NCBI GenBank assembly: GCA_019744975.1
Contig: JAIETP010000018.1
Coordinates: forward strand, 1,371-65,370
Direction of reading: 5' to 3'
Origin: Burkholderiales bacterium
Lineage (GTDB): Bacteria; Pseudomonadota; Gammaproteobacteria; Burkholderiales; SG8-41
DNA: 64,000 nt
Positions within the stretch are counted from its first letter, which is position 1. The number at the start of each line of letters is the position of its first letter. Below are positions 5,970-59,413 of the stretch, in pieces. The notes beneath the pieces are model-generated. The model did not search any database and had not been told where the DNA came from. It saw only the letters and a program-made list of their open reading frames with translations. The position numbers were made by a program, and so were the translations under genes.

Positions 5970-6557
5970 GAGCATGCCCTTCTTCAGGTCGTTGTCGGCG
6001 GGTTTGTCGCCCAGCCAGACGCGCAGCAATGCGCGGTTGAAATCTTCACCGGCGATCGTGGTTTTTACCGCGCCGTTGATGGTGATCCGCGTACCGCTGC
6101 CCGGCACGCTACCTGGAAGATAGTCGATCAGGATCACGTCGCCGCGTTTCGCAATCTTCACCGCGTCGAACACCGCACGCAGTTGTTTCACCTGCGCATC
6201 CAGCTTCGCCAGCGCGTCCACGGCATTGTTGTTTTTCAATCCGTCTTCCAGCGCATCGGCAAACTGGTCGGCAGGCACATCACGCAGCATGTGCAGTTCG
6301 ACACGTTTGGCACCGGCGTCGTTGATGACGGCGCTGGCTGAGCTGGTTTTTTTCTGCACATACAGCGCGCCGACATAAACGCGGAACATGAAGCGGGTGC
6401 GCAACCCTGCGCCGTTCAGCACCAGCTCAGTACCACCATCGGTAACACGCACGCTGTCCGGCAGTTTGACACCTTCAAACTCCGCTGCGGGCACAGCGAG
6501 GGGCAGCAGCGCCAGAATAAATATCATAAGTAATTGTTTTAATTCATATTTATTCAT
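5961..6557 (-). CDS. Chalcone-isomerase-like family periplasmic protein
   Basis: Start chosen at '[26 protein letters not shown]' (signal peptide, RBS 'aagggggg'). '[21 protein letters not shown]' is typical of bacterial CHI-like proteins. Confidence 0.75.
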
Positions 6558-7808: not shown

Positions 7809-7964
7809 TTTACAATCGGTGAAAAGTGAACGGGTGAACGAGTGAGCCCCCTCTCCCCAACCCTCTCCCCCGGTGACGGGGGAGAGGGAGAATTTCGGGG
7901 TTACCCGTTCACCCGTTCACTTTTCACCCGTTCACGCCTCATACCAGATTCACCCGTTCACTAG
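7809..7964. repeat. Composite nested inverted-repeat element (octamer arms plus GC hairpin), copy 1, filling the gap between the fadB-like gene and fadA
   Basis: Left arm 'gtgaaaagtgaacgggtgaacgagtga' (7819-7845) is the reverse complement of 7903-7929 with 1 mismatch. Inner hairpin ccctctccccc (7861-7871) pairs with gggggagaggg (7878-7888). An extra 'cacccgttcac' lies at 7951-7961. Confidence 0.9.
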
Positions 7965-18563: not shown

Positions 18564-18598
18564 AAGATAAGTATTTGATTTTATTAATTATTTTATAC
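18564..18598 (-). repeat. AT-rich dispersed motif, copy a (core 18567-18585, reverse orientation)
   Basis: Minus strand reads 'gtataaaataattaataaaatcaaatacttatc'. Contains aATCAAatacTTA. Confidence 0.85.
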
Positions 18599-32160: not shown

Positions 32161-32200
32161 TAAAATAATAATCAATTAAATCAAATACTTATAACAAAAT
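32161..32200 (+). repeat. AT-rich dispersed motif, copy b (core 32173-32192)
   Basis: 'taaaataataatcaattaaatcaaatacttataacaaaat'. Confidence 0.85.
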
Positions 32201-40538: not shown

Positions 40539-40580
40539 TTATATAAATATCAATAAAATCAAATACTTATAACATAACGT
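40539..40580 (+). repeat. AT-rich dispersed motif, copy c (core 40551-40570)
   Basis: 'ttatataaatatcaataaaatcaaatacttataacataacg'. Ends about 30 nt before the transporter ATG. Confidence 0.85.
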
Positions 40581-42834: not shown

Positions 42835-42993
42835 GTGAACAGTGAACGGGTGAACGAGTGAATACCCCTCTCCCCAGCCCTCTCCCCGTGCAACGGGGAG
42901 AGGGAGCACACCACGGGATTTCCCGTTCACCCGTTCACCCGTTCACCCGTTCACCCGTTCACCCGTTCACCCGTTCACCCGTTCACCCGTTCA
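42835..42993. repeat. Composite element copy 2: degenerate 'gtgaacNg' octamers, GC hairpin, then 9 perfect tandem 'cccgttca' octamers
   Basis: Left arm 42835-42862. Hairpin ccctctccccg (42878-42888) pairs with cggggagaggg (42894-42904). Octamer array 42922-42993 (72 bp). Confidence 0.95.
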
Positions 42994-44207: not shown

Positions 44208-45194
44208 TTACTGGACCTTGATGCCGGCGCTTTTCACCACTTCCGACCACTTTTTCATATCGGCAAGCATGAACTGGCGGAACTCCTCCGGGGAATTGGT
44301 CACAGCCTCGGAGCCGTTGTTTTCGGCGACCTTGCCGAATTCCGGCGATTTGACATAGCTCGCGATCTCGGCATGGATCTTGGTCAGCAGCGGCTTGGGC
44401 AATTTGGCCGGAGCAACCACGCCGTACCAGCCGACCACCGAGAACCCCGGCAGCACCTCAGCCAAGGCCGGCACATCCGGCGCCGCCTTGATGCGCTGCG
44501 GACCGCTCACCGCAATCGCGCGCAGCTTGCCGGCGCGCACCTGGCCGAATGCACCGGTCAGCCCCATGAAGTTGTAGTGATATTCGCCGCTGATCAGGGC
44601 GATGGCCGCCGGACCGGTACCTTTGTAGGGAATATGCTGGCCCTTGGTACCGGACATCAGCTTGTAGAGTTCACCGGCCAGATGTCCACCGCTGCCGATG
44701 CCGGCCGAACCGAAATTAATCTGGTCCTTGGTGGTCTTGCTCCACTGCACAAAATCCTTGGCGTTTTTCGCCGGGTGCGATGGGTTGACAACCAGCAGCA
44801 GCCCACCCGCGGTCATCTGCGTGATCGGCGTGAAATCGTTCACCGGGTGGTAGGGCAGCTTGGGCAGCAGCGCTGCGTTGACCGTATGCTGATGGTAGGG
44901 GATCAGCAGCGTGTAACCATCCGGCGCCGCCTCCTGGACGATTTGCGCGCCATTGACGCCGGATGCGCTGCCGCGGTTGTCAACGATGGCCTGCTGTTTC
45001 CAGGCTTTCGACAAATGGTTCGCCAGAAGTCTCGCCAGGAAATCGGTGGTGCCGCCGGGCGCCGCGGGTGTCACGATGCGCACCGGACGACTCGGATAGG
45101 CATCCGCAGCCTGCGCGGGCGCCATCGGCATGGCAATGCCCAGCGCAGCCAGCAGCAATGGAAATGTTTTGCGATAACCTGAGATAAACTGCAT
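44208..45194 (-). CDS. Bug-family (TctC-like) periplasmic solute-binding protein, orphan
   Basis: 'YPSRPVRIVTPAAPGGTTDFLARLLA' hallmark of Bug proteins. 328 aa. Confidence 0.85.
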   Translation of the reverse strand: MQFISGYRKTFPLLLAALGIAMPMAPAQAADAYPSRPVRIVTPAAPGGTTDFLARLLANHLSKAWKQQAIVDNRGSASGVNGAQIVQEAAPDGYTLLIPYHQHTVNAALLPKLPYHPVNDFTPITQMTAGGLLLVVNPSHPAKNAKDFVQWSKTTKDQINFGSAGIGSGGHLAGELYKLMSGTKGQHIPYKGTGPAAIALISGEYHYNFMGLTGAFGQVRAGKLRAIAVSGPQRIKAAPDVPALAEVLPGFSVVGWYGVVAPAKLPKPLLTKIHAEIASYVKSPEFGKVAENNGSEAVTNSPEEFRQFMLADMKKWSEVVKSAGIKVQ

Positions 45195-49100: not shown

Positions 49101-49140
49101 AAATAACAATAAGTATTTGATTTTATTGATATTTTTATAT
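49101..49140 (-). repeat. AT-rich dispersed motif, copy d (core 49109-49128, reverse orientation)
   Basis: Minus strand 'atataaaaatatcaataaaatcaaatacttattgttattt'. Lies between convergent gene ends. Confidence 0.85.
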
Positions 49141-55939: not shown

Positions 55940-58900
55940 ATGCATTCTGTTCAATTACCCGCACCGGGGCAGCGCGCAAGCACTGCACTGCTGCAGGGTT
56001 CGAGTGATGCCCCGGCGCTCGCCGCGCTGGCGGCCCGTGCACGTCCATTGCTGGTGATTACCGAGTCGGCCTGGCAGGCACAACGCCTGTTGCAGGAGAT
56101 TCCCTTCTTCGCGCCGCAGTTGCGCGTGCACCTGCTGCCCGACTGGGAAACCCTGCCCTACGACCAGTTCTCGCCGCATCATGATCTGGTGTCGGAACGG
56201 CTGGCGACGTTATGCCAGATGGTGCGCGGCGACTTCGACATCGCGCTGGTGCCGGTGACCACGGCCCTCTATCGGATGGCGCCGGTGGATTACATCACCG
56301 CCAATACCTTTTATTTCCGCCAGGGCGCAAAACTCGGCGCCGATGCGCTGCGCCATCAACTGGTGCTGGCCGGTTACAACCATGTCACCCAGGTGGTCGC
56401 GCCCGGCGAATACAGTTTCCGCGGCGGACTGATCGACCTCTATCCGATGGGCAGTCCGCTGCCCTATCGCATCGACCTGTTCGATGAGGTCATCGACTCC
56501 ATCCGCAGCTTCGACATCGACAGCCAGCGTTCGATCATCAAGGTGCCGGAAGTGCGCTTGCTGCCGGCGCGTGAATTCCCGCTGGATGCAGACGCACAGA
56601 AATATTTCCGCCAGCGTTTCCGCGAACGTTTTGAAGGGGACCCGTCGCGCAGCAAGGTCTACAAGGATATTTCGAAAGGCATCCCCACCGCGGGCATCGA
56701 ATATTTCCTGCCGCTGTTTTTTGACAACACCGCGCTGGTCACCGATTACCTGCCGAAAAACACAACACTGTGCCTGCGCCCCGGTGTCAGCGAGGCCATC
56801 GATGAATTCTGGGCCGACACGCGCGGCCGGCATGCGATGGTGCGCGGCGACCTCGCCAATCCGGTGCTGCCGCCGCAGGAATTGTTCCTGACCGAAGACG
56901 CGTTTTTCGGTGCGATCAAACCCTTTGCGCGTATCGATCTCTCTACTGCTACTGCAGCGATGGCGGGCTCACCCGCAGAGACGGCTGAAAATATCAATAA
57001 AATCAATAACTTATATGATATCTCCGCCACTGCCTCACTGCCATTGCTGAACGTCGAGCGCCGCGCCGACGATCCGCTGCACCGGCTGCGCGACTTCGTG
57101 AAGAATTTTGACGGCCGTGTGCTGGTGCTCGCCGAAAGCCCGGGCCGCCGCGAAACCATGCTCGAATATTTCGCGGAATACGATCTGAAACCCGCGCAGG
57201 CCGCTGACTATGCGCAGTTCAATGCGAGTGATGCGCCATTTGTATTAAGCGTTGCTCCATTACAAACCGGCTACATCGACACCGCTGCACGTGTCGCAGT
57301 CATCACCGAAAACGAACTCTACGCGGCACAGGTGCGCCAGCGCGCGGCGCGCGATGCCAAACGCACCGCCCCGGAAAACATGCTGCGCGACCTGTCCGAG
57401 GTCAAGATCGGCGATCCGGTGGTGCACGAAACCCACGGCATCGGTCGTTATGTCGGCCTGCAGACGCTGGACCTCGGCGAAGGAACAACTGAATTCCTGA
57501 CGCTGGAATACGCCAACAACGACAAGCTCTACGTCCCGGTCTCCAGCCTGCACCTGATCAGCCGTTACAGCGGCGCATCGGCGGAACAGGCGCCGCTCCA
57601 CCAGCTCGGCAGCGGGCAATGGGACAAGGCAAAGAAAAAAGCCGCGGCCCAGGTGCGCGATACTGCCGCCGAACTGCTCGCACTGTATGCGCAGCGCGCA
57701 GCGCGCGAGGGTTATGCCTTCAGCCTGAAACAGCACGACTACGAAGCCTTTGCCGAAGGTTTTCCGTTTGAAGAAACCCCGGACCAGGCCGCGGCAATCA
57801 CCGCCACGCTCGACGACCTCAAAAGCAGCAAACCGATGGACCGCCTGGTCTGCGGTGATGTCGGTTTCGGCAAAACCGAAGTGGCATTGCGCGCCGCTTT
57901 TGTCGCGGTCGCCGACGGCAAGCAGGTCGCCGTGCTGGTGCCGACGACGCTGCTCGCCGAGCAGCATTTCAACACCTTCTCCGACCGTTTTGCCCAGGTG
58001 CAGGATGCGTGGCCGGTCAAAATCGCCGAGTTTTCGCGTTTCCGTTCCACCAGCGAAACCAATGAAGCGTTGGCCGGCATTGCCGAGGGCCGCGTCGATA
58101 TCGCCATCGGTACGCACAAGCTGATCAGCCGTGACATCAAGTTCAAAAACCTCGGCCTTGTCATCATCGACGAGGAACACCGCTTTGGCGTGCACCAGAA
58201 GGAGCGGCTGAAGGCGCTGCGCGCCGAAGTTGATGTGCTGACACTGACCGCAACGCCGATTCCGCGCACACTGGCGATGTCGCTGGAAGGCCTGCGCGAC
58301 TTTTCGGTGATCGCCACTGCGCCGCAGCGCCGCCTCGCGATCAAGACTTTTGTTGCGCGTTTTGCCAAGTCGCTGATCCGCGAAGCGGTGCTGCGCGAAC
58401 TGAAACGCGGCGGCCAGGTGTATTTCCTGCACAACGACATCGACACCATCCGCAACATCGAGGAAGAACTGACGCGGCTGCTGCCGGAGGCGCGGGTGCG
58501 CATTGCCCACGGCCAGATGCGCGAACGTGATCTTGAACTTGCGATGCGGGATTTTTATCAGGGCCGTTTCAATGTATTGCTGTGCACCACCATCATTGAA
58601 ACCGGCATCGACATCCCCACCGCCAACACCATCATTATCAATCGCGCTGATCGTTTCGGCCTGGCGCAGCTGCACCAGTTGCGTGGCCGGGTCGGCCGTT
58701 CGCATCACCAGGCTTATGCCTATCTGCTGCTGCCCGACGAAGGCAACATCACCACGGGTGCAAAAAAACGCCTGGAAGCGATCCAGGCGATGGAGGAACT
58801 CGGTTCCGGATTCTTCCTCGCCATGCACGACCTTGAAATCCGCGGCGCCGGCGAAGTGCTGGGCGATTCACAATCGGGCGAGATGCAGGAAATCGGCTTC

Positions 58901-59413
58901 AACCTGTATTGCGCGATGCTCGACACTGCAGTCAAGGCATTGAAGGCCGGCAAGGAGCCGGACTTGAATGCCCCGCTCGGCGTCACCACCGAGATCAATC
59001 TGCACGCCCCCGCCCTGCTGCCCGACGCCTACTGCAGCGATGTACATGAACGGCTGGTGCTCTACAAACGGCTGGCCAACTGCGGCACTGATGACCAGCT
59101 GCAACTGCTGCAGGAAGAGCTGATCGACCGTTTCGGCGACCTGCCCGATCCGACACGCATCCTGATCGACAGCCACCGCCTGCGCATCCACGGCAAACCG
59201 CTGGGGATTGCGCGTATCGACGCCAGCGACAATGCGATTCAGTTGCAGTTCGTGCCCAACCCGCCGATAGACCCGATGAAAATCATCAAGCTGATCCAGA
59301 CCCGGCGCAATTACAAACTCGCCGGCCCGGACCGCTTGCGCATCGACATCAAAATCCCGGAACTTAAAGCGCGTGTCGCCGAGATCCGCAAGGTGTTTGC
59401 CGAACTGGCCTGA
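55940..59413 (+). CDS. mfd: Transcription-repair coupling factor
   Basis: 1157 aa. 'DRLVCGDVGFGKTEVA' Walker A, 'IIDEEHRFG' DEEH box, 'TATPIPRT', 'LHQLRGRVGRS'. Confidence 0.97.
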   Translation: MHSVQLPAPGQRASTALLQGSSDAPALAALAARARPLLVITESAWQAQRLLQEIPFFAPQLRVHLLPDWETLPYDQFSPHHDLVSERLATLCQMVRGDFDIALVPVTTALYRMAPVDYITANTFYFRQGAKLGADALRHQLVLAGYNHVTQVVAPGEYSFRGGLIDLYPMGSPLPYRIDLFDEVIDSIRSFDIDSQRSIIKVPEVRLLPAREFPLDADAQKYFRQRFRERFEGDPSRSKVYKDISKGIPTAGIEYFLPLFFDNTALVTDYLPKNTTLCLRPGVSEAIDEFWADTRGRHAMVRGDLANPVLPPQELFLTEDAFFGAIKPFARIDLSTATAAMAGSPAETAENINKINNLYDISATASLPLLNVERRADDPLHRLRDFVKNFDGRVLVLAESPGRRETMLEYFAEYDLKPAQAADYAQFNASDAPFVLSVAPLQTGYIDTAARVAVITENELYAAQVRQRAARDAKRTAPENMLRDLSEVKIGDPVVHETHGIGRYVGLQTLDLGEGTTEFLTLEYANNDKLYVPVSSLHLISRYSGASAEQAPLHQLGSGQWDKAKKKAAAQVRDTAAELLALYAQRAAREGYAFSLKQHDYEAFAEGFPFEETPDQAAAITATLDDLKSSKPMDRLVCGDVGFGKTEVALRAAFVAVADGKQVAVLVPTTLLAEQHFNTFSDRFAQVQDAWPVKIAEFSRFRSTSETNEALAGIAEGRVDIAIGTHKLISRDIKFKNLGLVIIDEEHRFGVHQKERLKALRAEVDVLTLTATPIPRTLAMSLEGLRDFSVIATAPQRRLAIKTFVARFAKSLIREAVLRELKRGGQVYFLHNDIDTIRNIEEELTRLLPEARVRIAHGQMRERDLELAMRDFYQGRFNVLLCTTIIETGIDIPTANTIIINRADRFGLAQLHQLRGRVGRSHHQAYAYLLLPDEGNITTGAKKRLEAIQAMEELGSGFFLAMHDLEIRGAGEVLGDSQSGEMQEIGFNLYCAMLDTAVKALKAGKEPDLNAPLGVTTEINLHAPALLPDAYCSDVHERLVLYKRLANCGTDDQLQLLQEELIDRFGDLPDPTRILIDSHRLRIHGKPLGIARIDASDNAIQLQFVPNPPIDPMKIIKLIQTRRNYKLAGPDRLRIDIKIPELKARVAEIRKVFAELA
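56987..57022 (+). repeat. AT-rich dispersed motif, copy e, in-frame inside mfd (core 56995-57014)
   Basis: 'gaaaatatcaataaaatcaataacttatatgatatc' encodes ENINKINNLYDI within an Ala/Ser/Thr-rich linker. Confidence 0.8.

What the first reader, a model, noticed from the sequence alone, without database searches (positions are those of the whole stretch)
56987..57022. AT-rich motif copy sits in-frame inside mfd, encoding ENINKINNLYDI in a variable linker
Within an otherwise GC-rich essential-type gene, 36 nt read 'gaa aat atc aat aaa atc aat aac tta tat gat atc'. The stretch is flanked by Ala/Ser/Thr-rich low-complexity sequence ('STATAAMAGSPAETA' .. 'SATASLPLL'), upstream of the conserved 'VERRADDPL' block.

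The nucleotide sequence matches the dispersed intergenic core at 18/20. This indicates either insertion of the element into a tolerant linker without breaking the frame, or a DNA-level site (for example IHF binding) maintained inside a coding region.
Basis: partly seen in the sequence, partly recalled or inferred. Interest (0 to 1): 0.6.

Follow-up and report, generated by a model that had tools for sequence, protein, structure and literature searches.

The report
IHF-type DNA site written into mfd
A 33-base AT-rich stretch inside the DNA-repair gene mfd is a genuine copy of a genome-wide family of probable binding sites for the DNA-bending protein IHF, and evolution has frozen its "silent" codon positions across a whole genus, so one stretch of DNA carries both a protein code and a DNA-binding code.

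Summary
Window 56987-57022 lies in frame in mfd (55940-59413, +). It encodes ENINKINNLYDI in a predicted disordered linker between the UvrB-homology module and domain D3.

The stretch scores 45 bits on a 33-bp matrix of a dispersed family with 342 copies in this 3.7-Mb genome (2 in a reversed-sequence control). The family has an A-tract, an 8-bp spacer and WATCAANNNNTTR, which is the layout of a full IHF site.

All 16 same-genus mfd genes read carry the block with AT-rich codons. Across the 14 in the codon alignment, silent positions are frozen (AAT 14/14, AAA 14/14, TTA 14/14) while flanking codons vary freely. The one freely varying triplet falls in the N4 spacer.

Copies in murD, nuoG, purD (antisense) and polA (another frame) behave the same way in 22-25 species. 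This excludes peptide-level and rare-codon explanations.

None of the 27 copies embedded deep in G000 genes has another site within 3 kb, so they follow the family's spacing rule.

A second lineage carries its own antisense copy about 25 codons further into mfd.

The genome encodes IHF alpha and beta but no HU, and the two motif-bearing lineages are the only ones sampled that lack HU.

IHF binding itself is inferred, not shown.

The parts
55940..59413 (+). mfd (transcription-repair coupling factor), 1157 aa
   Evidence: ORF list and translation. Full-length match to E. coli Mfd structures 6x26 and 2eyq at E = 0.
56942..57052 (+). Coding sequence of the variable linker (residues 335-371) between the UvrB-homology module (D1a-D2-D1b) and D3
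   Evidence: The alignment to E. coli Mfd is gapped here. Linker length is 10-57 aa in other Burkholderiales and 31-77 aa in the genus. AlphaFold gives pLDDT below 50 for residues 339-359, flanked by confident domains.
56985..57017 (+). 33-bp embedded site CTGAAAATATCAATAAAATCAATAACTTATATG, a full member of the dispersed AT-rich family
   Evidence: Weight-matrix score 45.0 bits, against a family threshold of 30 bits with 2 control hits. It is the only site within mfd plus or minus 1.5 kb. The nearest site upstream is 7.9 kb away, and none follows before the contig end.
56987..56992 (+). Upstream A-tract GAAAAT (codons Glu350, Asn351)
   Evidence: GAA 11/11 and AAT 11/11 among genus sequences that keep these residues. 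It corresponds to family positions -6 to -1, AAAAAW.
57001..57013 (+). Core AATCAATAACTTA, matching WATCAANNNNTTR
   Evidence: Read directly from the sequence. Across the 14 aligned genus mfd genes, codons AAA, A[A/T]C, AAT and TTA are frozen, and the triplet inside N4 (codon 357) varies freely.
49110..49130 (-). Nearest neighbouring family copy (intergenic, 59 bits)
40549..40569 (+). Family copy (intergenic, 57 bits)
32171..32191 (+). Family copy (intergenic, 52 bits)
18568..18588 (-). Family copy (intergenic, 55 bits)
6527..6547 (-). Family copy overlapping a start codon (ATGAATTAAAACAATTACTTA), 44 bits
884..904 (-). Family copy embedded antisense in another gene (36 bits)

Best explanation
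The AT-rich block is a double-stranded DNA site that belongs to a genus-wide family of about 340 sites per genome. The sites are dispersed and keep apart from one another. The block is kept by purifying selection at the nucleotide level inside the mfd reading frame.

Its architecture is that of a full-length IHF site: a 6-bp A-tract, an 8-bp A/T-rich spacer, then WATCAA-N4-TTR. The most likely ligand is the IHF alpha/beta heterodimer, which in this lineage is the only DNABII protein because no HU gene is present.

The site sits in the one part of Mfd that tolerates almost any sequence, the disordered linker between the UvrB-homology module and D3. The protein therefore simply reads the site as E-N-I-N-K-[IN]-N-x-L.

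Shown:
- family membership;
- in-frame position in a disordered, length-variable linker;
- conservation across the genus, with frozen silent positions;
- the same behaviour of embedded copies in four other genes, in other frames and on the other strand;
- embedded copies obeying the family's spacing rule;
- presence of ihfA and ihfB, and absence of HU.

Inferred:
- that IHF is the protein that binds;
- that the family's job is architectural (regularly placed sharp bends that organise the chromosome) rather than gene-specific regulation.

The origin of the mfd copy is unresolved. It could have arisen by insertion of extra linker DNA or by point substitutions in a drifting linker. At least the polA and purD copies arose by substitution without any indel.
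For: (1) Family membership. The copy scores 45 bits. There are 342 genome sites at 30 bits or more against 2 in the control.

(2) The family acts as duplex DNA, not as RNA or a promoter.
- There is no orientation bias in tandem intergenic regions (108 same, 103 opposite).
- Copies occur in convergent regions (59), divergent regions (36) and tandem regions (211).
- Copies lie closer to stop codons than to start codons.
- There is no Rfam hit, no significant RNA fold and no inverted repeat.

(3) Conservation across the genus. All 16 genus mfd genes read carry the block. None of the 13 outgroup genera readable, nor the roughly 40 further Burkholderiales whose linker could be parsed, has it at this place.

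(4) Nucleotide-level constraint.
- Codon counts are GAA 11/11, AAT 11/11, AAT 14/14, AAA 14/14, AAC 11/11, AAT 11/12 and TTA 14/14.
- In the other conserved Leu columns of the same alignment, TTA is 0.6% of Leu codons.
- Flanking codons use 3-4 synonymous codons each.
- Third-position entropy is 0.52 in the block and 1.44 in flanking linker windows.
- That value is the lowest among the 52 windows with equal or higher amino-acid variability.

(5) The constraint pattern matches the IHF consensus. The A-tract, CAA and TTR are fixed. Only TTA or TTG occurs, never CTN, in mfd (15 + 1) and in nuoG (13 + 11). The triplet inside N4 varies freely.

(6) Independence of frame and strand.
- murD VKNINKINxI is kept in 25 genomes.
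- nuoG EIFNKNNxL is kept in 24 genomes.
- In purD (antisense copy) CAA and ATT are each fixed in 22/22 genomes.
- polA (frame +2, aga att tta tca ata aaa aca ata) is near-invariant in 24 genomes.
- Motif-less outgroups encode the same polA and purD segments with GC-normal codons and no length change.

(7) Embedded copies count as sites. 0 of 27 has another site within 3 kb, against a Poisson expectation of 33% within 2 kb (p = 2e-5). For the whole family, the gap CV is 0.71 against 0.95-0.98 in the nulls, and gaps under 2 kb are 2.6% against 15-18%.

(8) IHF alpha (NF001401, 166 bits) and IHF beta (NF001222, 156 bits) are encoded in the canonical pheT and rpsA contexts. There is no third DNABII gene.

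(9) Phyletic link. The genus and G031, the only other lineage with the family, have at most 2 DNABII genes. All 15 motif-less genera have 3-5, including an HU-like gene.

(10) An independent second case. Genus g8 keeps an antisense copy about 25 codons downstream in mfd in 6 of 6 genomes.
Against: - No binding data exist. IHF is assigned only from a consensus and a phyletic correlation.
- 38% of family members, and most genus mfd copies, have AACAA instead of ATCAA, a departure from the textbook consensus.
- Family positions that IHF is not known to read (the AATAAAA between the A-tract and the core, and TAC within N4 in intergenic copies) are more conserved than IHF recognition alone would predict. 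A modified specificity or a second factor is therefore possible.
- There is no clear reason why the site must lie inside mfd. Intergenic gaps of 66, 132 and 281 bp exist within a few kb, and embedded copies are not significantly enriched in long genes (p about 0.12).
- Four genus mfd copies score below 30 bits on the G000 matrix (21.7-29.9), so the site may be decaying in some species.
- Spacing statistics rest on my own crude gene calls and on a draft assembly of 44 contigs.
Confidence: 0.67

Rival explanations
1. The site is real and selected at the DNA level, but the ligand is not IHF. It could be another sequence-specific nucleoid or segregation protein. It could also be an intrinsic DNA-shape signal (a narrow minor groove or static bend) that matters in itself.
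For: - The family consensus is much longer and sharper than WATCAANNNNTTR, with about 28 informative positions including AATAAAA and TAC.
- 38% of copies carry AACAA rather than ATCAA.
- The even spacing is reminiscent of architectural or segregation motifs.
Against: - All three IHF determinants are present at the canonical geometry.
- In the embedded copies the only freely varying triplet is inside N4, and Leu is restricted to TTR.
- IHF alpha and beta are encoded, and the family co-occurs with loss of HU.
- No other candidate protein was identified.
Confidence: 0.17
2. The block is a relic of an in-frame insertion of a small mobile repeat (like Rickettsia palindromic elements or other MITEs) into a tolerant linker. 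It has no present DNA-level function, and its conservation is merely inherited.
For: - The genus linker is about 15-20 residues longer than the usual 13-22 in other Burkholderiales.
- The same linker has taken in GC-rich palindromic repeats in frame in at least six genus species and in one outgroup.
- In-frame repeat insertions are documented in Rickettsia (PMC10969869).
Against: - Silent sites elsewhere in mfd have diverged (third-position identity 0.65-0.83 between pairs), while the block's silent sites are invariant.
- The family has no terminal inverted repeats, no target duplication and no similarity beyond 33 bp.
- The polA and purD copies carry no indel relative to motif-less outgroups, and the murD copy shows no length change within the genus.
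- Embedded copies obey the spacing rule.
Confidence: 0.05
3. The constraint is translational or on the peptide. Either a cluster of rare codons (TTA, AAT, AAA) slows the ribosome between two Mfd domains to aid folding, or the N/K-rich peptide itself is functional.
For: The block lies exactly at a domain boundary and uses the rarest Leu codon.
Against: - It does not explain a 45-bit match to a family of mostly intergenic, orientation-free sites.
- The same nucleotides are frozen in polA (a different frame, peptide RILSIKTISY) and in purD (antisense, QVIDFIDKN).
- Rare-codon selection would not fix AAC at codon 355, nor allow TTG but never CTA.
Confidence: 0.04
4. The site has a job specific to mfd. 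Protein bound at it acts as a roadblock to RNA polymerase inside mfd. Mfd releases roadblock-stalled polymerase, so the gene would limit its own expression by negative feedback.
For: - Two lineages independently keep a site within about 100 bp of the same place in mfd, whereas g8 lacks the g1 copies in polA and purD.
- Mfd is the main terminator of roadblock-stalled RNAP in E. coli (PMC4132739).
Against: - About 27 other genes in this genome carry embedded copies.
- In G031 sites lie every 2.5-3 kb around mfd, so a 3.4-kb gene would be hit anyway.
- The two copies have opposite orientation.
- No expression data exist.
Confidence: 0.06
5. The block is an assembly or binning artefact.
For: Reads could not be inspected. 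The genome is a draft of 44 contigs.
Against: - The frame is intact.
- The closest relative has the same block with one base changed.
- Sixteen independent assemblies carry it at the same codon position.
Confidence: 0.01

Closest known systems
Full-length IHF sites of the phage lambda attP H' type (A-tract plus WATCAANNNNTTR), and the ~2,300 chromosomal IHF motifs of E. coli mapped by ChIP-exo (PMC9104697)
   Same: - It has the same three sequence elements at the same spacing.
- A/T-rich flanks that narrow the minor groove are associated with high occupancy in E. coli.
- The sites act as duplex DNA without orientation preference.
- IHF alpha and beta are encoded in the canonical pheT and rpsA contexts.
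   Different: - The site here is far more sharply defined, with about 28 informative positions.
- Copies keep apart from each other.
- In E. coli, IHF occupancy is enriched upstream of transcription units and is thought to avoid gene bodies. Here about 8% of copies are written into reading frames and kept there for the life of a genus.
- Binding has not been tested.
Rickettsia palindromic elements (RPEs) and other MITEs inserted in frame into genes (reviewed in PMC10969869)
   Same: A member of a dispersed repeat family is translated as part of a housekeeping protein, at a surface or linker position that tolerates it.
   Different: - RPEs are about 150 bp, palindromic and mobile, and they create indels.
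- This site is 33 bp with no inverted repeat or target duplication.
- In polA and purD it overlies existing codons without any change in length.
- Its silent positions are under selection.
RIP/RIB elements of E. coli (an IHF site flanked by REP palindromes) and IHF sites inside Neisseria Correia elements (from established knowledge; Correia IHF site in PMC10969869)
   Same: It is a repeated IHF-type site in a bacterial chromosome. In six genus relatives the mfd site is directly followed by a GC-rich REP-like hairpin, and two of ten such hairpins in this genome adjoin a site.
   Different: In the window genome the mfd copy and most family members have no flanking palindrome. The site is not carried by a larger repeat.
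Dual-use codons, meaning transcription-factor or nucleoid-protein sites inside coding sequence that constrain synonymous positions
   Same: Protein code and DNA-binding code overlap, with suppressed synonymous change.
   Different: Here the signal is unusually clean. It is seen for one defined 33-bp site in five genes, in three frame or strand arrangements, across 22-25 species.

Membership tests
IHF binding site (canonical full-length type) | Core matching WATCAANNNNTTR | tested here: met
   AATCAATAACTTA at 57001-57013. Most genus orthologues have AAACAAT-NNN-TTA, with one departure (T to A).
IHF binding site (canonical full-length type) | A/T-tract about 8 bp upstream of the core | tested here: met
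   GAAAAT at 56987-56992, then the 8-bp spacer ATCAATAA, then the core. The family consensus is AAAAAW-ATCAATAA-AWCAA.
IHF binding site (canonical full-length type) | Evolutionary constraint on the specified positions and freedom in N4 | tested here: met
   In mfd, nuoG, murD, purD and polA the variable triplet lies in N4. The TTR codon is only TTA or TTG in mfd and nuoG. murD keeps ATA instead.
IHF binding site (canonical full-length type) | Host encodes IHF alpha and beta | tested here: met
   NF001401 at 165.9 bits (cut-off 111) and NF001222 at 156.3 bits (cut-off 115), found next to pheT and rpsA.
IHF binding site (canonical full-length type) | Specific binding and sharp bending by IHF | not testable with these tools
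   This needs EMSA, footprinting or ChIP.
Dispersed AT-rich site family of this genus | Weight-matrix score above the family threshold | tested here: met
   45.0 bits, against a threshold of 30 bits (342 hits, 2 in the control).
Dispersed AT-rich site family of this genus | Mutual exclusion from neighbouring sites | tested here: met
   The nearest site is 7.9 kb away. 0 of 27 embedded copies has a neighbour within 3 kb.
Dispersed AT-rich site family of this genus | Orthologous conservation across the genus | tested here: met
   Present in 16 of 16 genus mfd genes read, and 12 of these score 30 bits or more on the G000 matrix.
MITE or RPE-like mobile repeat inserted in frame | Terminal inverted repeats or palindromic structure | tested here: not met
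   No inverted repeat in 56900-57110. RNA fold z = -1.68.
MITE or RPE-like mobile repeat inserted in frame | Clean indel relative to orthologues, with target-site duplication | tested here: inconclusive
   The linker is about 15-20 aa longer than usual, but some outgroups have linkers of similar length with unrelated sequence. No duplication was seen.
MITE or RPE-like mobile repeat inserted in frame | Copies share sequence over the whole element, including its ends | tested here: not met
   Information content falls to zero outside about 33 bp.
Mfd (transcription-repair coupling factor) | Full-length similarity to solved Mfd, including the UvrB-homology module, RID and translocase | tested here: met
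   6x26 and 2eyq at E = 0, aligning query 10-1156 to chain 14-1142.

The most novel reading that the evidence does not exclude
In two HU-less lineages of uncultured Burkholderiales, IHF has taken over bulk chromosome architecture. It does so through a dedicated array of over-specified 'super-sites' that must be placed at regular intervals. The pressure is strong enough that sites are written into the reading frames of housekeeping genes (mfd, polA, murD, nuoG, purD and others) and held there for the life of a genus.

The mfd site, acquired independently in both lineages, may in addition act as a protein roadblock at which Mfd terminates transcription of its own gene.
Probability: 0.25. Interest if true: 0.8.

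Novelty: new variant of a known kind. Interest (0 to 1): 0.62.

Why it matters
IHF sites and in-frame repeats are both known. A single, sharply defined nucleoid-protein site that is kept inside coding sequence across a genus is an unusually clean natural example of two overlapping codes. The protein sequence bends to fit the DNA signal: His to Ile, Lys to Ser and Val to Ile in polA, and a whole linker in mfd.

This has three consequences.
- It gives a direct comparative read-out of which bases of the site matter.
- It shows that the site array is under strong selection in its own right.
- Together with the absence of HU, it suggests a different way of organising a bacterial chromosome that could be tested in any cultured member of the group.

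It also warns annotators that odd N/K/I-rich patches with rare codons in these genomes are DNA signals. They are not sequencing errors or horizontally acquired pieces.

Tried and rejected
- **Internal promoter.** The scan found only two weak minus-strand matches, one overlapping the block's 3' end, and the TATGAT after the site is not conserved in relatives. Rejected.
- **RNA element.** There is no Rfam match and no significant fold, and the family shows no orientation bias. Rejected.
- **Promoter or RBS role for the family.** Copies are commoner per region in convergent gaps and lie nearer to stops than to starts. Rejected.
- **Embedded sites fill otherwise oversized gaps.** The merged gap around embedded sites (19.3 kb) equals that around other sites (18.4 kb). 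No support.
- **Embedded sites prefer long genes.** Not significant (p about 0.12).
- **Clean 12-codon indel.** Not demonstrable, because the linker is too variable in outgroups.
- **The GC-rich hairpin after the site in relatives belongs to the window's copy.** It is absent from the window genome's mfd. Only about 10 such hairpins exist in G000, and 2 of them lie next to a site.
- **First scripts.** Early versions picked wrong frames or ORFs for some loci and were redone.
- **Earlier-findings look-ups.** Searches by words and by sequence returned nothing.
Full report
**1. The observation**

The 36 bases gaa aat atc aat aaa atc aat aac tta tat gat atc stand at window 56987-57022. They lie in frame in the only long ORF of the region, 55940-59413 (+), 1157 aa. 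That ORF is Mfd. It aligns over its whole length with the solved E. coli Mfd structures (6x26, 2eyq; E = 0).

The block encodes residues 350-361 (ENINKINNLYDI). Local GC falls to 37-47% in a 61% GC window.

The 20-mer differs at 2 of 20 positions from intergenic copies at 40549 and 49111. Five matches with up to 3 mismatches occur in the window, and none occurs in 100 shuffles.

**2. The family it belongs to**

The whole assembly is 3.69 Mb in 44 contigs at 60.5% GC. In it the 21-mer ATCAATAAAATCAAATACTTA has 26 exact copies and 161 copies with up to 2 mismatches.

The conserved part is about 33 bp: wwAAAAAW-ATCAATAAAA[T/A]CAAATACTTA-TAAw. Position 10 is T in 61% of copies and A in 38%. Information content drops to zero outside this stretch.

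A softened weight matrix finds 342 sites at 30 bits or more, against 2 in the reversed-sequence control. The mfd copy scores 45.0 bits.

The family behaves as duplex DNA rather than as a promoter or an RNA.
- In tandem intergenic regions it points with the genes 108 times and against them 103 times.
- It occurs in 59 convergent, 36 divergent and 211 tandem regions.
- It lies closer to stop codons (median 13-24 bp) than to start codons (53-62 bp).

The sites also avoid one another.
- The mean gap is 10.1 kb.
- The coefficient of variation is 0.71, against 0.95-0.98 in two nulls (0 of 1000 nulls as low).
- Gaps under 2 kb make up 2.6%, against 15-18% expected.

The layout is a 6-bp A-tract, an 8-bp A/T spacer, then AATCAA-N4-TTA. 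This is the layout of a full-length IHF site (WATCAANNNNTTR plus an upstream A-tract; established knowledge; compare PMC9104697). Earlier AI notes of this scan reached the same reading for other windows. I used them as leads and re-derived the census, the spacing and the consensus myself.

**3. Where the block sits in the protein**

In the alignment to E. coli Mfd the region is gapped. It lies after the UvrB-homology module: the N-terminal fragment structure 2b2n ends at query residue 332.

Among other Burkholderiales the segment between R-[IV]-[DE]-L and [VI]-[ED]-R-R-A is 10-57 residues long, usually 13-22. In the genus it is 31-37 residues, or up to 77 where further DNA has been taken in.

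An AlphaFold model built from 31 sequences gives pLDDT below 50 for residues 339-359. These lie between a confident strand (330-336) and a confident D3 domain. The block is therefore in a disordered inter-domain linker that tolerates changes in length.

**4. Relatives**

All genus mfd genes that cover the region carry the block. That is 14 plus L047 and L031, at 85-97% protein identity. The 13 outgroup genera readable do not have it at this place. Neither do the roughly 40 further Burkholderiales whose linker could be parsed, including the nearest outgroups at 69-72% identity.

The motif family itself is present in all 25 genus genomes. Outside the genus it is present in only one other genus of 16 sampled (G031).

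**5. The decisive point: silent positions are frozen**

Codon usage in the block, across the 14 aligned genus sequences:

| Codon | Count |
|---|---|
| GAA | 11/11 |
| AAT | 11/11 |
| (codon 352) | variable |
| AAT | 14/14 |
| AAA | 14/14 |
| AAC | 11/11 (ATC in the window genome and its closest relative) |
| AAT | 11/12 |
| (codon 357) | free: GAT, AAC, GAG, GTG, GAC, AAT, TAC, TAT, AAG |
| TTA | 14/14 |

- In the 112 conserved Leu columns of the same alignment, TTA is 23 of 1505 codons, and 14 of those 23 are this one column.
- Flanking codons use three or four synonymous codons each. Thr364, for example, is ACT 3, ACC 4, ACA 3, ACG 3.
- Mean third-position entropy is 0.52 in the 9-codon block, 1.44 in adjacent linker windows and 0.70 gene-wide.
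- The block's value is the lowest among the 52 windows whose amino-acid variability equals or exceeds that of the block.
- Elsewhere in the gene, third positions of identical residues agree in only 65-83% of cases between pairs.

L047 has TTG instead of TTA, so the constraint is TTR, not one particular codon. The conserved bases are the A-tract, CAA and TTR. The freely varying triplet is inside N4.

**6. It is not special to mfd, to one frame or to one strand**

Forty-two sites lie wholly inside my ORF calls. About 27 lie deep inside well-supported genes. The host genes include oxoprolinase, a UvrA-like protein, HrpA, PolA, NuoG, GlmS, MurD, RlmL-like, LigA, PurD, TruB and NuoM.

I followed four of them through the genus.

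| Gene | Arrangement | Sequence kept | Genomes |
|---|---|---|---|
| murD | sense | gta aaa aat atc aat aaa atc aat NNN ata | 25 |
| nuoG | sense | gaa ata ttc aat aaa aac aat NNN tt[a/g] (TTA 13, TTG 11, CTN 0) | 24 |
| purD | antisense | caa gtn att gat ttt att gat aaa aat (CAA 22/22, ATT 22/22) | 22 |
| polA | frame +2 | aga att tta tca ata aaa aca ata ag/ct ta[t/c] | 24 |

In motif-less outgroups the same polA and purD segments have the same length and ordinary GC-rich codons. G035 polA, for example, reads cgt cac ctg gat gtg acg acg atc aag tac.

These sites were therefore written onto existing codons by substitution, and they changed some residues on the way. This excludes a peptide-level or rare-codon explanation. 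It also shows that a mobile insertion is not required.

None of the 27 deep-embedded sites has another site within 3 kb. The Poisson expectation is 33% within 2 kb (p = 2e-5). Embedded sites thus count as sites for whatever sets the spacing.

**7. A second, independent copy in mfd**

G031 belongs to another family. In an Mfd tree it groups with a motif-less genus rather than with this genus (single-gene tree).

It has a 43-bit copy on the antisense strand, written over S-Q-L-I-N-F-I-D-N-F-N with no indel. This is about 25 codons downstream of the position used in this genus. All six genomes of that genus keep it as caa cta att gat ttt att gat aat ttt. That genus lacks the polA and purD copies of the present genus.

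Around G031 mfd the sites lie 2.5-3 kb apart. A 3.4-kb gene is therefore likely to receive a site, which tempers the surprise.

**8. The candidate ligand**

The genome has exactly two DNABII genes.
- IHF alpha lies after pheT (NF001401, 165.9 bits).
- IHF beta lies after rpsA (NF001222, 156.3 bits).

No HU-like gene was found. Across 41 relatives, the genus and G031 have at most two DNABII genes. The exceptions are G011 (8% contaminated) and G015. All 15 motif-less genera have three to five. I checked the best-scoring copy in three of those genera, and it is HU-like.

The site family and the absence of HU therefore go together. Whether this reflects one event or two needs a proper species tree.

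**9. Explanation and its limits**

Most likely, the block is a functional, IHF-type DNA-bending site of a chromosome-wide array. It was placed in the one part of mfd that can encode almost anything.

The following are shown by the data:
- the block is a member of the site family;
- it lies in frame in the disordered, length-variable linker;
- it is under nucleotide-level constraint;
- that constraint is independent of frame and strand;
- embedded copies obey the spacing rule;
- the genome encodes IHF but has no HU gene.

The following are inferred:
- binding by IHF;
- an architectural role for the family.

The following remain unresolved:
- how the mfd copy arose (the linker is 15-20 residues longer than usual, so extra DNA may have come in);
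- why a site is kept inside mfd when intergenic gaps of 66-281 bp lie within a few kb.

Points against a plain IHF reading:
- the AACAA variant is frequent (38% of the family);
- bases that IHF is not known to read are strongly conserved.

**10. Comparison with what is known**

- **E. coli IHF motifs.** E. coli has about 2,300 IHF motifs, nearly all bound. They are enriched upstream of transcription units and are thought to avoid gene bodies (PMC9104697).
- **IHF sites in repeats.** Repeated IHF sites occur in Correia elements (PMC10969869) and in the RIP/RIB elements of E. coli (established knowledge).
- **In-frame repeats.** In-frame repeat insertions are best known from Rickettsia palindromic elements (PMC10969869).

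The present case shares the site architecture with the first two and the in-frame translation with the third. It differs from all three in two ways. It is a short, non-palindromic, non-mobile site. It is also maintained by selection inside reading frames across a genus. I therefore file it as a new variant of a known kind.

A bolder reading is that the mfd site doubles as a roadblock at which Mfd terminates its own transcript. This rests on the known role of Mfd at protein roadblocks (PMC4132739) and on the two independent mfd copies. I give it low odds.

Noticed in passing
G000 C43:6942-7208 and C12:18-287 (outside the window); relatives G001-G040: Only two DNABII genes (ihfA, ihfB) are present and no HU. 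Among 17 genera of the order, the two lineages that carry the AT-rich site family have at most 2 DNABII genes, and the 15 without the family have 3-5, with an HU-like best hit in the three genera checked.
   Followed up: partly
L021/L242 (G031 C28:28279-31701), about 1.1 kb into mfd; L243-L247: A second lineage (genus g8) keeps its own embedded copy of the site in mfd. It is antisense, written over SQLINFIDNFN without an indel, about 25 codons downstream of the position used in this genus. It is conserved in 6 of 6 genomes.
   Followed up: yes
L006, L009, L025, L026, L029, L031 (mfd linker of genus relatives); L057 (outgroup): Directly after the AT-rich site, six relatives carry in-frame insertions of 60-120 nt. 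These contain a GC-rich hairpin CCCTCTCCCCGC-nnn-GCGGGGAGAGGG, translated as PSPQPSPRLRGEG. An outgroup has a similar insert (PSPFMGEG) in the same linker. The linker is a hotspot for in-frame repeat insertion.
   Followed up: partly
window 7861-7888 and 42878-42904 (C17:9231-9258, 44248-44274); 8 more in G000: This is a composite repeat. The same CCCTCTCCCC hairpin is flanked on both sides by arrays of the heptad GTGAACG in inverted orientation. Two of the ten hairpins in the genome lie within 50 bp of an AT-rich site.
   Followed up: no
window 6527-6547 (-); G000 C10:13804, C1:13069, C2:207370, C3:144787, C1:188787: Several copies of the site overlap start codons (ATGAATAAAATCAAATACTTA). They supply the N-terminus M-N-K-I-K-Y-L of apparent signal peptides.
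   Followed up: no
G000 C1:218979 (polA), C26:5521 (murD), C4:217583 (nuoG), C18:26583 (purD), C13:45368 (glmS), C5:111710 (ligA), C8:83327 (truB), C14:59125 (hrpA), C15:60087 (uvrA-like), C6:169685 (oxoprolinase): About 27 further copies are embedded deep in housekeeping genes, in every frame and on either strand that stays open. Four were followed through the genus and are conserved with frozen silent positions.
   Followed up: partly
L032 (DATICE010000185.1), mfd linker: The nearest outgroup (71-72% Mfd identity) has an unrelated linker expansion containing a tandem duplication, gtt tca agt tcc aag ttt caa gtt tca agt tcg.
   Followed up: no
L031, L057, L106 record titles: Some public MAG records of this betaproteobacterial group carry implausible organism names (Bordetella parapertussis, Chitinophaga pinensis, Bifidobacterium sp.) although their Mfd is 60-90% identical to this one. 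These are probably labelling errors.
   Followed up: no
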